This document shows, in pieces, positions 6,361-8,745 of a stretch of 15,633 nucleotides of DNA. The stretch lies in the IMG/VR virus record IMGVR_UViG_3300031834_001018; one strand, given 5' to 3'. Every line of letters begins with the position of its first letter. The first letter of the stretch is position 1. Position numbers and translations under genes: made by a program. The notes under the pieces were generated by a model. That model ran no database searches. It saw only the letters and a list, made by a program, of their open reading frames with translations, and was not told where the DNA came from. The DNA comes from a virus.

Positions 6361-7099
6361 TCCAGTTTTTTATGTTTATGCCTATTTAGATCCACGAAAA
6401 CCAGGAAATTTTCAATATAGAGATTCTATTATATTTAATTGTGAACCATATCTAATTGGAAAAGGTCATAAAAAGAGAGATGTATCTCATTTGAAATCAG
6501 TATTAAATGATAAAATTGATAGATGCAATCTTCATAAGACTTATAAAATTAAACAAATTCTAGAGGAAGGATTTGAACCAATTATTATAAGAATTTATGA
6601 AAATCTTTATGAAGACCAAGCATTTGAAACCGAAATATTTATGATACGCCAGATTGGTAGACGAGACTTAGATTTGGGTCCTCTTGTAAATTTATCAGCT
6701 GGTGGAGAAGGAAATTCCGGATATATTCAAACAATAGAACACAAACGTTTGCATGGAAAACAGATCAGAGAAAATTATAAAGATCATAACTTTCGTGAGA
6801 AATACTCCAAGATAATGCAGGAATGCTGTAATTGCCCAGAATATAAAGAAAAACAGAAAATGAATTCTCTTCGTTTATGGAAAGATCAGGAATATAGAAA
6901 AAGACGAAAAGAATCTATAACAGAAGAAACTAAGAAAAAACAAAAAGATAAACTTAGTATTAAAATGATGGAAAAATGGAAAGATCCGGAATTTAGAAAT
7001 AAAATATTAATGGCAAAATTACATAAAAAGGAATTAAGAAAATGTGCGGAATTAGTGGATACTTCGCAAGAGAGTCAAAACCTAACAAAGGCATTCTAA
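6341..7099 (+). CDS. GIY-YIG homing endonuclease (Seg/I-TevI-like) with C-terminal NUMOD-like DNA-binding repeats. An alternative upstream in-frame start lies at 6296.
   Basis: The GIY-YIG core is VFYVYAYLDPRK ... EPYLIGKGHKKR ... FETEIFMIRQ ... NLSAGGEG (GIY, YIG, catalytic Arg, Glu and Asn positions). The C-terminal repeats resemble NUMOD3 (ITEETKKKQKDKLS, EHKRLHGKQIRE) and a repeated WKD-x-E-F/Y-R motif. The region is markedly AT- and Lys/Asn-rich compared with its neighbours. Confidence 0.8.
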   Translation: MRKLNPNPVFYVYAYLDPRKPGNFQYRDSIIFNCEPYLIGKGHKKRDVSHLKSVLNDKIDRCNLHKTYKIKQILEEGFEPIIIRIYENLYEDQAFETEIFMIRQIGRRDLDLGPLVNLSAGGEGNSGYIQTIEHKRLHGKQIRENYKDHNFREKYSKIMQECCNCPEYKEKQKMNSLRLWKDQEYRKRRKESITEETKKKQKDKLSIKMMEKWKDPEFRNKILMAKLHKKELRKCAELVDTSQESQNLTKAF

Positions 7100-8745
7100 G
7101 AGGTCTTTTCGAAGAAGGTTCAAAAAGAGGCACAGATGGTTTTGGTTGGGTTTTAATACATAGAAAACAATGTATTTCGCACAGAAAATATAAAGGTCTT
7201 CCTGATTTTCGTGACGTTTTACATGGTATGCCTGTTACTTTAGAACTTGGTGATATAATATTATCCAATTCACGTGCGGCGCCAGAAACAGAATCCGCAG
7301 TAAATGAATCAAAACTAGAACAAACTGTTCAACCAGTAATATTGGATGATCAGGGGTTATATTTAGTTCATAATGGAAGTTGCTCTAACTTTATTGTTAA
7401 TGAACTTAAAAAGAAATATACTTTTCAAACAGACATCGATTCAGAAGCTATACTTTGGGCATATATTAAATTTGGTAGAAATATGCAAGAAGCTATGGAA
7501 TATCTTTCTGGGGGTTTTGCTTTTCTGATGATGGATACGATAAAAAATAAACTTTTTGCAGTCACAACCCACAACCCATTATATACTGGATATGTACGTG
7601 GTCATGGTTTATTCTTTTCTTCTACTGAAGAAGGTGTATTACAGACAGTTTCTAAGTTAAAAGGGGTAACCATCAACAAAAATACTTTAACTGTTTGGGA
7701 AGATTATTATATTCATCAGATATCAGAGAATACTATACAAGAAATAGATCTTGACAGCGGGATGGTAAATGAATATAAATTTGAACCAAGATATGTTACG
7801 AGCACCTATGATTGTTACAATAAAGAAATGAATGATAAACCAGTTGTTCTTGTAGCATCCTCTGGCGGACTAGATAGTTCAACCACCTTAGCGGCCCTCA
7901 AGGAGGCGGAGATGAATCCTGTTGCTGTACACTTTAAGTACGGGCATCGTGGCCAGGAGGCGGAGGAAATCGCTATAAGGGAGGTTGTAAAGTTACTTGA
8001 TATTCCATTATATACGTTCAATATTTCGGAAAACATGAAGATATTGGATTCTGGAATGTTGACCGATAAAGATGCCAAGATTATTACAGGAACAGATGCC
8101 GGTTTGAAAACAACGGCTGCTTGGACTGTATATAGGAATCATCTATTCATGACTTATATGGGGGCCTTGGCAGAATCACTGATAATGAAGGACAATTACT
8201 CACAGGTATTCTTGACCGGTGGATTTATGAATCTTTCTGAATCAGGCAGTTATCCGGACAATTCAGAAAGATTCATTGATGCAGCAATGAAGTTTTTCAA
8301 GTTTTCTATCACCGGTACTAGATTGAGACCACTTTATGGTATGTGTAATATCCTTAAGACAGAACAATATGTTCTTCTAAATGAATTGGGTTGGTTAGAG
8401 AAACTTTCTCCGTGGCTTGTATCTTGTGATAGACCAATTACTCAAGCAGTAATAGCAGAACACTGGGGAGACAGTAATCGAATTCCTCTCAATTGTTCTA
8501 AGGATGGTAAACCTGCTTGTGGTAGCGGACTTCTATCCTACTGGGCGGCGAAGATGGCTGGCGTTCCTGATCTAAGACGTTATTATAACGTCAATGATCC
8601 TGAATATAAAGCATTTGAACCGAACTCAAGTTTGTCTGTTAAGGATATTAATGTAGACCATATTATATCCAGGATAATGATACCGGAAAAATACTTAGAG
8701 ATACTACGAAATAAGGTTCATAATTGTAAAAATGTTGGGTCCTAA
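7042..8745 (+). CDS. queC: Glutamine amidotransferase (class II, Ntn) fused to a QueC-like PP-loop ATP pyrophosphatase (Gat-QueC-like; 7-cyano-7-deazaguanine, i.e. preQ0 pathway, or amidotransferase)
   Basis: The N-terminal MCGISGYF puts the class-II GATase Cys nucleophile at position 2. The PP-loop VVLVASSGGLDSSTTLAAL is followed by VHFKYGHRGQEAEEIA (compare QueC SGGQDSTT...FDYGQRHRAEI). A C-terminal Cys cluster, CSKDGKPACGSG, is positioned like the QueC zinc site. An AAGGAA SD precedes the ATG. Confidence 0.8.
   Translation: MCGISGYFARESKPNKGILRGLFEEGSKRGTDGFGWVLIHRKQCISHRKYKGLPDFRDVLHGMPVTLELGDIILSNSRAAPETESAVNESKLEQTVQPVILDDQGLYLVHNGSCSNFIVNELKKKYTFQTDIDSEAILWAYIKFGRNMQEAMEYLSGGFAFLMMDTIKNKLFAVTTHNPLYTGYVRGHGLFFSSTEEGVLQTVSKLKGVTINKNTLTVWEDYYIHQISENTIQEIDLDSGMVNEYKFEPRYVTSTYDCYNKEMNDKPVVLVASSGGLDSSTTLAALKEAEMNPVAVHFKYGHRGQEAEEIAIREVVKLLDIPLYTFNISENMKILDSGMLTDKDAKIITGTDAGLKTTAAWTVYRNHLFMTYMGALAESLIMKDNYSQVFLTGGFMNLSESGSYPDNSERFIDAAMKFFKFSITGTRLRPLYGMCNILKTEQYVLLNELGWLEKLSPWLVSCDRPITQAVIAEHWGDSNRIPLNCSKDGKPACGSGLLSYWAAKMAGVPDLRRYYNVNDPEYKAFEPNSSLSVKDINVDHIISRIMIPEKYLEILRNKVHNCKNVGS

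What the first reader, a model, noticed from the sequence alone, without database searches (positions are those of the whole stretch)
7042..8745. Gat-QueC-like fusion implies 7-deazaguanine (queuosine/archaeosine-type) chemistry, possibly on DNA
A class-II glutamine amidotransferase N-domain (MCGI...) fused to a QueC PP-loop domain matches the Gat-QueC architecture reported in phage 7-deazaguanine DNA-modification clusters, which make dG+ or dADG-type bases that protect against restriction. No DpdA (TGT-like), FolE, QueD or QueE is visible in this window. The rest of the pathway must therefore be elsewhere in the genome or supplied by the host. It is also possible that one of the three unknown ORFs downstream (8904..10356) is a novel pathway component.
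Basis: partly seen in the sequence, partly recalled or inferred. Interest (0 to 1): 0.5.

Follow-up and report, generated by a model that had tools for sequence, protein, structure and literature searches.

The report
Jumbo-phage variant of Gat-QueC amidotransferase
The gene is a real glutamine-amidotransferase/QueC fusion from a divergent, phage-only branch of the enzymes that make 7-deazaguanine bases such as archaeosine, but no enzyme that would insert such a base into DNA was found near it or near its closest relatives.

Summary
The ORF at 7042-8745 (+, 567 aa) is real. It has an intact class-II glutaminase domain starting at Cys2, fused to a PP-loop domain that is QueC-type by sequence and by fold, not AsnB-type. 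It is only about 25% identical to the characterised phage 9g-type Gat-QueC. It belongs to a separate "long" clade of roughly 130 metagenomic proteins, many on contigs of 100-307 kb that also encode a multisubunit RNA polymerase. None were found in GenBank phages (best match about 25% identity) or in GTDB reference genomes. The clade keeps the QueC substrate motifs, but it has lost one zinc cysteine, replaces an essential Tyr with Asp, and carries a C-terminal tail found nowhere else. A FolE gene lies 1.5 kb past the window end on the same contig. A 57%-identical relative also has QueD. The sister clade sits in a complete QueD-QueE-FolE-QueC-DpdA cluster. So 7-deazaguanine chemistry is well supported. 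A DNA target is not shown: no DpdA appeared in 20 non-redundant neighbourhoods, and the best-conserved unknown neighbour is not TGT-like. The three downstream ORFs are not conserved with the gene. Verdict: a new variant of a known kind, of moderate interest.

The parts
7028..7032 (+). Shine-Dalgarno sequence AAGGA, 9 nt upstream of the ATG
   Evidence: Read directly from the sequence.
7042..8745 (+). Complete ORF of 567 aa: the long-type Gat-QueC-like fusion protein
   Evidence: The AF2 model has pLDDT 90.5 and pTM 0.87.
7042..7791 (+). Class-II (Ntn) glutaminase domain, aa 1-250. Cys2, R29-G30, R78, H110-N111-G112 and D133-S134-E135 are conserved across the family
7837..8541 (+). QueC-type PP-loop ATP-pyrophosphatase domain, aa 266-500
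7861..7878 (+). PP-loop SGGLDS, aa 274-279, the ATP-binding motif
   Evidence: S274, G276, D278 and S279 are invariant in A1. Coordinates.
7939..7965 (+). YGHRGQEAE, aa 300-308, the counterpart of the QueC YxQxHxxE motif. Tyr is kept; Gln is replaced by His and His by Gly
   Evidence: A1 invariants Y300, G301, H302, R303, G304 and E308. Motif definition from PMC13329287.
8122..8139 (+). WTVYRN, aa 361-366, the counterpart of QueC VPxRN. The essential Arg-Asn pair is kept
   Evidence: R365 and N366 are invariant. Motif definition.
8239..8265 (+). ESG|SYPDNS, aa 400-408, the counterpart of the QueC YPDC substrate motif. Relatives carry inteins inserted between G402 and S403
   Evidence: Y404, D406 and N407 are conserved. 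Intein junctions in P0027 and P0008. Same insertion site in canonical-type L039.
8422..8529 (+). Remodelled zinc region, aa 461-496: SCD (C462, D463), N-C485 and A-C493-GSG. It has three Cys instead of the four in the QueC motif C(x)8CxxCxxC, and Asp where QueC has an essential Tyr
   Evidence: Alignment with canonical Gat-QueC and QueC. A1 invariants. Y189A inactivates E. coli QueC (PMC13329287).
8554..8742 (+). Family-specific C-terminal tail, aa 505-567 (RRYYxVxD...Y...P, then two helices)
   Evidence: Canonical Gat-QueC and QueC lack it. A search with aa 455-567 against 1.84 billion representative proteins gave only 38 hits, nearly all at the C-terminal end of GQC-type proteins or fragments.

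Best explanation
The gene encodes a two-domain, glutamine-dependent 7-deazaguanine amidotransferase of the Gat-QueC kind. The steps below are inferred from domain homology and conserved residues; none was shown biochemically. After Met removal, Cys2 of the N-terminal Ntn glutaminase domain hydrolyses glutamine. The ammonia passes to the C-terminal QueC-type PP-loop domain. That domain uses ATP to adenylate the 7-carboxylate of 7-carboxy-7-deazaguanine (CDG). This gives the amide (ADG), then the nitrile (preQ0), and by analogy with the 9g enzyme the amidine (G+, archaeosine base). FolE on the same contig would feed the pathway from GTP. QueD, QueE and the insertion enzyme would be encoded elsewhere in the large genome or borrowed from the host. 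The most likely purpose is to modify the phage's own DNA against restriction. That last step, and the exact product (G+, ADG or preQ0), are inferences. My estimates: about 0.8 that the substrate is a 7-deazaguanine, about 0.5 that the end point is phage DNA, and about 0.35 that the product is G+.
For: (1) Both domains are intact. The glutaminase catalytic set (C2, R29/G30, R78, HNG 110-112, DSE 133-135) and the PP-loop SGGLDS are conserved in 34 family members at 37-67% identity.
(3) The counterparts of Y35, R99 and Y131, three of the four residues whose alanine mutants abolished E. coli QueC function, are kept as Y300, R365 and Y404. The YPDN variant is the same as in 9g-type Gat-QueC.
(4) Inteins sit exactly at this YPDN motif in several relatives, which marks it as a conserved and probably functionally important site.
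(5) Context. FolE is on the same contig at window-equivalent 17103-17864 (E 4.5e-37). FolE occurs in 8 of 20 non-redundant loci of the clade. A bona fide QueD is in the 57% relative L008. QueD plus a stand-alone QueC are in L013, and QueE is in L023.
(6) The sister clade (L026/L205, 36-40% identity) lies in a QueD-QueE-FolE-rSAM-GQC-QueC-DpdA cluster on two independent contigs.
(7) 9g Gat-QueC plus DpdA puts dG+ into DNA in E. coli, including in a queC deletion strain (PMC6884629).
(8) Some relatives encode the two domains as separate ORFs (L027-L031), as expected for a glutaminase/synthetase pair.
Against: No DpdA was detected in 20 non-redundant neighbourhoods of +/-10 kb. None was detected in about 30 kb of the 236-kb relative or about 43 kb of the 307-kb relative. 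QueE is also missing from most loci. A viral-contig scan for DpdA1-like genes listed none of the large contigs among its top 80 of 461 hits. The zinc region is remodelled: the Tyr that is essential in E. coli QueC is Asp463, and one Cys is lost. The reaction may therefore stop at a different product or use a different substrate. Basal members of the clade (L013, L026/L205) also carry an ordinary QueC, so the long enzyme may not be the preQ0 synthase. Identity to any characterised Gat-QueC is only 23-29%. No biochemical data exist for this clade.
Confidence: 0.6

Rival explanations
1. The enzyme chemistry is the same (a 7-deazaguanine base is made), but the product is not installed in DNA by a DpdA-type transglycosylase. 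It could be used at the nucleotide level, inserted by an unrecognised enzyme, or fed into host or phage tRNA modification.
For: DpdA was found in 0 of 20 neighbourhoods. None of the large contigs appears among the listed DpdA1-like hits. The lineage encodes its own multisubunit RNA polymerase next to the gene. The 307-kb relative carries a tRNA and a tmRNA. Iyer et al. 2021 note that some jumbo phages carry only a subset of the deazaguanine system (PMC7824862).
Against: Every phage so far shown to carry 7-deazaguanines in its DNA encodes a DpdA-family protein, some found only by HHpred (PMC10516641). Only about 20-45 kb of genomes of 100-300 kb could be read. The sister clade does have DpdA. 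No tRNA gene lies near the gene itself.
Confidence: 0.2
2. It is a glutamine-dependent PP-loop amidotransferase that has moved to a carboxylate other than a 7-deazaguanine. Candidates are the pterin intermediate CPH4 made by FolE and QueD, or a carboxylated base of a hypermodified nucleotide.
For: The zinc-site region, which borders the substrate pocket, is remodelled: Y is replaced by D463, one Cys is lost, and a 20-residue insert and a new tail are present. QueE is absent from most loci while FolE, and sometimes QueD, is present. The QueC fold has been repurposed repeatedly (PMC13329287). The gene sits among replication and transcription genes as a conserved core gene.
Against: The Y/RN/YPD substrate-side residues of QueC are kept. 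Basal and sister members sit with QueE, QueC and DpdA. No alternative pathway genes are conserved next to it.
Confidence: 0.12
3. It is a protein-modifying QueC-like enzyme in the manner of Cap9 or QatC. It might work with the adjacent E2-like, E1 (ThiF) and JAB genes in a conjugation or counter-defence module.
Against: A conserved, catalytically complete glutaminase domain implies that ammonia, not a protein amine, is the nucleophile. The E1/E2/JAB trio is absent from the other sub-lineage that carries the same enzyme. No CD-NTase or QatA/B/D partners are present.
Confidence: 0.04
4. It is an asparagine synthetase B-type enzyme mis-read as QueC.
For: NCBIfam TIGR01536 gives the best whole-protein E-value (9.1e-19). 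Foldseek ranks AsnB and GlmS high.
Confidence: 0.02

Closest known systems
Phage Gat-QueC of Enterobacteria phage 9g and other Queuovirinae (dG+ pathway; Hutinet et al. 2019, PMC6884629)
   Same: Same two-domain order: class-II glutaminase with Cys1, then a QueC PP-loop domain. Same YPDN variant of the QueC YPDC motif. The same PHROG matches (E 1.6e-31). Inteins occur at the same site. Both are associated with FolE.
   Different: Identity is only 23-29%, and the two form separate clades in a neighbour-joining tree. This protein is about 100 aa longer. Its zinc motif has 3 Cys, with Asp in place of the Tyr after the first Cys, plus a 20-residue insert and a family-specific tail of about 60 aa. 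It is not embedded in a QueE-QueD-FolE-DpdA operon (compare with 10 and 12). It is found on large contigs with a multisubunit RNA polymerase rather than in siphophages of about 60 kb.
Long-type Gat-QueC of contigs L026/L205 (IMGVR_UViG_3300011118_000493 and 2740891978_000005)
   Same: Sister clade at 36-40% identity. Same SCD plus three-Cys zinc region and a similar C-terminal extension in the alignment.
   Different: These proteins sit in a compact cluster: QueD-QueE-FolE-radical SAM-GQC-QueC-DpdA. Their tail is too divergent for tblastn with the window tail to detect it.
Canonical QueC (preQ0 synthase; B. subtilis 3BL5, E. coli QueC)
   Different: QueC has no glutaminase domain. The NCBIfam QueC equivalog scores 57 bits against a cutoff of 150. 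YxQxHxxE has become YGHRG...E. The essential Tyr189 is replaced by Asp. The fourth zinc Cys is lost.
Crenarchaeal GAT-QueC (archaeosine synthase alternative; PMC5485725)
   Same: Same fusion concept. Expression in E. coli gives G+ in tRNA, according to the literature.
   Different: No archaeal sequence was compared here. A scan of 185,579 reference genomes with the long-family motifs found no relative, so the long clade is not the archaeal form.

Membership tests
Gat-QueC (phage 9g / archaeal type) | N-terminal class-II glutamine amidotransferase domain with catalytic Cys1, fused to a QueC domain in one polypeptide | tested here: met
Gat-QueC (phage 9g / archaeal type) | Groups with known phage and archaeal Gat-QueC sequences in sequence space | tested here: inconclusive
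   PHROG 10428 at E 1.6e-31 and tblastn at 1e-17 to 1e-23 show homology over aa 1-450. However, identity is 23-29% and the NJ tree puts the long clade apart from the 9g-type clade. No archaeal sequences were compared.
Gat-QueC (phage 9g / archaeal type) | QueC-type four-Cys zinc motif (SCY...C..CxxC), as in 9g-type proteins | tested here: not met
   SCD463...C485...C493-GSG. Only three conserved Cys are present, and Tyr is replaced by Asp.
Gat-QueC (phage 9g / archaeal type) | Encoded with FolE, QueD, QueE and a DpdA transglycosylase | tested here: inconclusive
   FolE is on the same contig. QueD is in a 57% relative. QueE and DpdA were not found in 20 neighbourhoods. Only part of each genome could be read, and 16 kb of the source contig remains unread.
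Gat-QueC (phage 9g / archaeal type) | Produces G+ (dG+ in DNA together with DpdA, or G+ in tRNA) | not testable with these tools
   This needs expression and LC-MS/MS as in PMC6884629.
Canonical QueC (preQ0 synthase) | Signature SGGxDS, YxQxHxxE, VPxRN, YPDC, a conserved Lys, and C(x)8CxxCxxC with the essential Tyr189 (PMC13329287) | tested here: not met
   SGGLDS, RN, YPD and K439 are kept. YGHRG replaces YxQxH, YPDN replaces YPDC, Asp463 replaces Tyr189, and one Cys is lost. TIGR00364 scores 57.1 bits against a cutoff of 150.3.
Asparagine synthetase B | Asn_synthase-type synthetase domain and a score above the TIGR01536 cutoff | tested here: not met
   Score of 67.8 bits against a cutoff of 267.1, with the match ending at aa 331. 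No Pfam Asn_synthase hit. The C-terminal half is QueC-like.
Cap9 / QatC protein-deazaguanylating QueC-like enzymes | Stand-alone QueC-like ligase encoded with its protein substrate and partners (CD-NTase and Cap10, or QatA/B/D) | tested here: not met
   Only a weak match to PADLOC's QueC model over the PP-loop region (E 3.2e-9). No partner genes are in the window. A fused, active-looking glutaminase domain is present.

The most novel reading that the evidence does not exclude
The long-type Gat-QueC is a conserved core gene of an uncultivated lineage of large phages with their own multisubunit RNA polymerase, invaded by inteins in some relatives. It makes a 7-deazaguanine derivative, possibly one other than G+ given the remodelled zinc and substrate region. 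That derivative is installed without a recognisable DpdA, either by a new kind of insertion enzyme or before replication at the nucleotide level.
Probability: 0.2. Interest if true: 0.7.

Novelty: new variant of a known kind. Interest (0 to 1): 0.4.

Why it matters
7-Deazaguanine DNA modifications are a major phage counter-measure against restriction enzymes. So far every modified phage has been found to carry a DpdA transglycosylase. This study identifies a distinct Gat-QueC clade, seen only in viral and metagenomic contigs, with an altered active-site periphery. It is conserved across a lineage of large phages, yet no DpdA could be seen in the roughly 20-45 kb readable around it. If complete genomes confirm that DpdA is absent, the lineage would be a test case for a new route of 7-deazaguanine installation or for a new derivative. 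If DpdA turns up elsewhere in these genomes, the gene is simply a divergent archaeosine or preQ0-pathway enzyme, and it extends the pathway to this uncultivated lineage of large, RNA-polymerase-encoding phages.

Tried and rejected
(1) AsnB reading: rejected.

(2) Downstream ORFs 8732-10356 as pathway parts: rejected. ORFs 8732-8911 and 8904-9353 have no relative in 30 related loci. ORF 9359-9787 has only marginal N-terminal matches. ORFs 9787-10356 and 10374-11072 are shared only with L017/L018. No family hits were found.

(3) The most conserved unknown neighbour, c3 (about 300 aa, present in 15 of 20 loci), as a cryptic DpdA: rejected. There were no Pfam, PDB or phage hits. The AF2 model (pLDDT 85.8) is a beta-meander plus helices, not a TIM barrel, and Foldseek found nothing below E 0.01.

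(4) Other conserved unknowns gave no TGT or radical-SAM signal by hhalign, Pfam or PDB profile search. These were c18/c38 (after FolE), c7, c8, c10 and c19 (a WWDP-repeat protein).

(5) Reading the remaining 16 kb of the source contig failed. The homologue search with the last readable gene did not return the contig's own protein.

(6) Scans of viral contigs with QueE and DpdA profiles listed none of the large contigs among the 80 loci returned, out of more than 380 and 461 hits respectively. This is inconclusive.

(7) Extending the 236-kb relative 8.5 kb upstream found topoisomerase, helicase, nuclease and ligase genes, but no Que genes.

(8) A scan of GTDB reference genomes for the long family found no relative.

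(9) Rfam found no preQ1 riboswitch or other RNA family in the window. Promoter and terminator scans were at chance level.

(10) Whole-protein Foldseek was dominated by the glutaminase domain and was uninformative for the C-terminal half. The afdb50 library was unavailable.
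Full report
**Observation.** The ORF at 7042-8745 (+) encodes 567 aa. An AAGGA ribosome-binding site sits 9 nt upstream of the ATG. Pfam finds a class-II glutamine amidotransferase domain (GATase_7, aa 91-197, E 3.8e-14; GATase_6, E 1.4e-12). It also finds a QueC domain (PF06508, aa 270-453, E 7.2e-19). The protein begins MCGI, so Cys immediately follows the initiator Met, as Ntn-type glutaminases require. The other ORFs inside these coordinates are short (51-91 aa), lie fully within this ORF, and have no support.

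**QueC or AsnB.** NCBIfam's AsnB equivalog gives the best whole-protein E-value. But it scores 67.8 bits against a cutoff of 267, and the match stops at the PP-loop (aa 2-331). The QueC equivalog scores 57 bits against a cutoff of 150. So the protein is neither enzyme in the strict sense.
- A profile of 34 family members finds B. subtilis QueC (3BL5) as the best PDB sequence (E 1.5e-10, profile positions 267-474). AsnB is matched only through the glutaminase domain and the PP-loop.
- An AlphaFold model built on that alignment is confident (pLDDT 90.5, pTM 0.87).

The C-terminal domain is therefore QueC-type.

**Which Gat-QueC.** tblastn against GenBank phages finds only relatives of about 25% identity, covering aa 1-450. 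These are the Gat-QueC genes of Queuovirinae and similar siphophages. In two that I opened, the gene lies in a QueE-GatQueC-QueD-FolE-DpdA cluster. PHROG 10428, which covers these genes, matches at E 1.6e-31.

A search of 5.8 billion proteins found 132 homologues. Most are 540-580 aa, 37-67% identical over the full length, and all are metagenomic. Many lie on contigs of 100-307 kb. A neighbour-joining tree separates this "long" clade from the 9g-type clade, with 23-29% identity between them. A scan of 185,579 reference genomes with the clade's motifs found no relative. The neighbouring RNA polymerase beta' subunit is at most 29% identical to anything in GenBank phages. The clade therefore belongs to an uncultivated lineage of large phages.

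**What is conserved and what has changed.** The following residues are invariant or nearly so across the 34 aligned members:
- the glutaminase catalytic set: C2, R29/G30, R78, HNG 110-112 and DSE 133-135;
- the PP-loop S274-G-G276-L-D278-S279;
- Y300-G-H-R-G304...E308, R365-N366, Y404-P-D406-N407 and K439;
- C462-D463, C485 and C493.

I compared these with the experimentally refined QueC signature (SGGxDS, YxQxHxxE, VPxRN, YPDC, a conserved Lys, and C(x)8CxxCxxC; PMC13329287). In that work alanine mutants of Y35, R99, Y131 and Y189 abolished function.
- Kept: the Tyr, Arg-Asn and Tyr-Pro-Asp positions. The YPDN variant is the same one seen in 9g-type Gat-QueC.
- Changed: Asp463 stands where the essential Tyr189 is in E. 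coli QueC. One zinc cysteine is lost. An insert of about 20 residues carries the new C485. The 9g-type proteins retain SCY...C..CxxC.
- Added: a tail of about 60 aa follows the zinc region. A search with aa 455-567 against 1.84 billion representative proteins returned only 38 hits, nearly all at the C-terminal end of GQC-type proteins or their fragments.

Inteins in P0027 and P0008 are inserted exactly between G402 and S403, at the YPDN motif. The 9g-type protein in L039 has an insertion at the same site. Inteins typically target conserved active-site motifs. In L027-L031 the two domains are separate ORFs with an ATP-dependent DNA ligase gene between them. This fits a glutaminase/synthetase pair.

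**Context on the source contig.** The window is the end of a 40-kb ENA contig, ERZ27247875 k141_534655. I could read 23.9 kb of it. The gene order is:
- an E2-like protein (64-1095);
- ThiF/E1 (1077-2123);
- a JAMM/JAB protease (2182-3036);
- a major-vault-protein-like gene (3054-5630);
- small ORFs, an RHH protein and a GIY-YIG nuclease (to 7099);
- the Gat-QueC-like gene;
- four poorly conserved ORFs;
- RNA polymerase beta' (11204-13936) and beta (13967 onward);
- beyond the window end, FolE (window-equivalent 17103-17864; Pfam GTP_cyclohydroI E 4.5e-37), unknown ORFs, a putative ATPase (PHROG 1297 only) and a DUF2201/VWA protein.

tblastn with QueE, QueD and DpdA from two Queuovirinae phages found none of these in the 23.9 kb. 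The remaining 16 kb could not be reached.

**Context in relatives.** I collected 30 loci, later extended with L121-L123 and L205, and clustered their ORFs. Twenty non-redundant loci have a tail that tblastn with the window tail can detect. Within +/-10 kb of the gene, these contain:

| Gene | Loci (of 20) |
|---|---|
| RNA polymerase beta | 15 |
| RNA polymerase beta' | 13 |
| c3 (unknown, about 300 aa) | 15 |
| ThiF | 9 |
| FolE | 8 |
| QueD | 2 |
| radical-SAM c34 | 2 |
| QueE | 1 |
| stand-alone QueC | 1 |
| DpdA | 0 |

The QueD of the 57% relative L008 has the Cys/His-Gly-His zinc motif and is a bona fide QueD. The sister clade (L026 and L205, 36-40% identical) lies in a compact QueD-QueE-x-FolE-x-radical SAM-GQC-x-QueC-DpdA cluster on two independent contigs. 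This is the strongest link between this type of enzyme and DpdA-mediated DNA modification.

In the large-phage lineage itself, DpdA and QueE were not seen. This holds for about 30 kb of the 236-kb genome and about 43 kb of the 307-kb genome. Three further relatives on contigs of 114-221 kb also showed neither gene. Each of these is only a fraction of the genome.

**Search for a hidden transglycosylase.** Protein c3, the unknown most often found with the gene, has no Pfam, PDB or phage match. Its AlphaFold model (pLDDT 85.8) is a beta-meander with a helical C-terminus, not a TIM barrel. It has no significant structural neighbour. It is not a DpdA. The other conserved unknowns (c18/c38, c7, c8, c10, c19) gave no TGT or QueE signal.

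**The three downstream ORFs.** ORF 8904-9353 (and the small ORF 8732-8911) has no relative in any related locus. ORF 9359-9787 has only marginal short N-terminal matches in two loci. ORF 9787-10356 occurs only in L017/L018. None matches a family. They do not behave like pathway components.

**Interpretation.** The gene most likely encodes a glutamine-dependent QueC-type amidotransferase that acts on a 7-carboxy- or 7-cyano-7-deazaguanine. The evidence for this is the conserved catalytic residues of both domains, the retained QueC substrate-side residues, FolE on the same contig, and the Que and DpdA genes in basal and sister members. Hutinet et al. showed that 9g Gat-QueC together with DpdA gives dG+ in DNA, even without host QueC (PMC6884629).

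Two things remain inferred: the product (G+, ADG or preQ0) and the destination. Basal members also carry an ordinary QueC, and the zinc region is remodelled. Both facts suggest the long enzyme may not simply duplicate the 9g reaction. Every phage so far shown to carry 7-deazaguanines in its DNA encodes a DpdA (PMC10516641). Iyer et al. note that some jumbo phages carry only part of the system and may rely on the host (PMC7824862). The absence of DpdA here is therefore either a sampling limit or something new.

**Verdict.** The gene is a new variant of a known kind of enzyme. Interest is moderate at 0.4. It would be higher only if complete genomes prove to lack a DpdA.

Noticed in passing
window 64-3036: A three-gene ubiquitin-like conjugation set lies directly upstream. 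The first protein (64-1095, cut by the contig end) has an E2/UBC-like HPNVN...VCIG motif; the only PDB hits below E 1 are UBE2D1-type E2 enzymes, and they are weak. The second is a ThiF/E1-like protein (1077-2123; Pfam E 1.6e-12; PADLOC E1-E2 (Cap2-type) models E 6e-13). The third is a JAMM/MPN+ protease (2182-3036) with an invariant E...HxHx7SxxD motif. The trio precedes the Gat-QueC gene in 7 of 20 related loci. No ubiquitin-like substrate was identified.
   Followed up: partly
window 3054-5630: An 858-aa protein has major-vault-protein shoulder (E 1.2e-27) and vault-repeat (E 1.1e-10) domains in what appears to be a phage genome. It has no counterpart in any related locus. It lies in an insertion between the JAB gene and the Gat-QueC gene, and a 13-bp-stem hairpin follows it at 5644-5673.
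   Followed up: partly
window 6205-7099: A ribbon-helix-helix protein (6205-6360) and a LEM-3-like GIY-YIG nuclease (6341-7099) lie just upstream; the nuclease overlaps the start of the Gat-QueC gene by 58 nt. The nuclease is absent from relatives, so it is probably a free-standing homing endonuclease next to a conserved gene.
   Followed up: partly
P0027, P0008, L039; window-equivalent aa 402/403 (nt 8245-8250): Inteins of about 137 and about 412 aa are inserted at the same ESG|SYPDN site in long-type relatives (P0008, P0027). A large insertion sits at the same site in a 9g-type Gat-QueC (L039).
   Followed up: yes
L027-L031 (e.g. L027 7810-10915): The glutaminase and QueC halves are separate ORFs (291 and 307 aa) with an ATP-dependent DNA ligase gene (KLDGNR motif, 437 aa) between them. 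L030 carries extra, partly degenerate glutaminase copies.
   Followed up: partly
window 11204-15633 and L002 10001-15949: Unsplit, compact multisubunit RNA polymerase beta' (910 aa) and beta (1061 aa) genes are at most 29% identical to any GenBank phage. They are syntenic with the Gat-QueC gene and FolE across the lineage.
   Followed up: partly
L002 15900-16661 (window-equivalent 17103-17864, outside the window): A GTP cyclohydrolase I (FolE) gene starts 1.5 kb past the window end, overlapping the end of the RNA polymerase beta gene.
   Followed up: yes
L002 17458-18180 and orthologues (alignment A4): A conserved protein of about 236 aa downstream of FolE carries a YDFKSAYP motif that resembles motif A of DNA polymerases. 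It has no family hit.
   Followed up: no
window 10374-11072: A 232-aa protein has an N-terminal hydrophobic stretch (possible membrane anchor). By eye only, its C-terminal part resembles a 3D/double-psi-barrel domain. The only tool hits are PHROG 33758 (E 1.8e-10) and a weak Pfam 2H-phosphodiesterase match. It is shared only with L017/L018.
   Followed up: no
L120 5565-7000: The 307-kb relative encodes a tRNA-Pro and a tmRNA about 30 kb from its Gat-QueC gene.
   Followed up: no
L020, L023, L026, L205 (e.g. L026 4882-5922): A radical-SAM protein of about 350 aa, related to QueE (hhalign probability 96%; Pfam Radical_SAM E 6e-8), accompanies long-type Gat-QueC in three different lineages, in L023 and L026/L205 alongside an ordinary QueE. 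Its function is unknown.
   Followed up: partly
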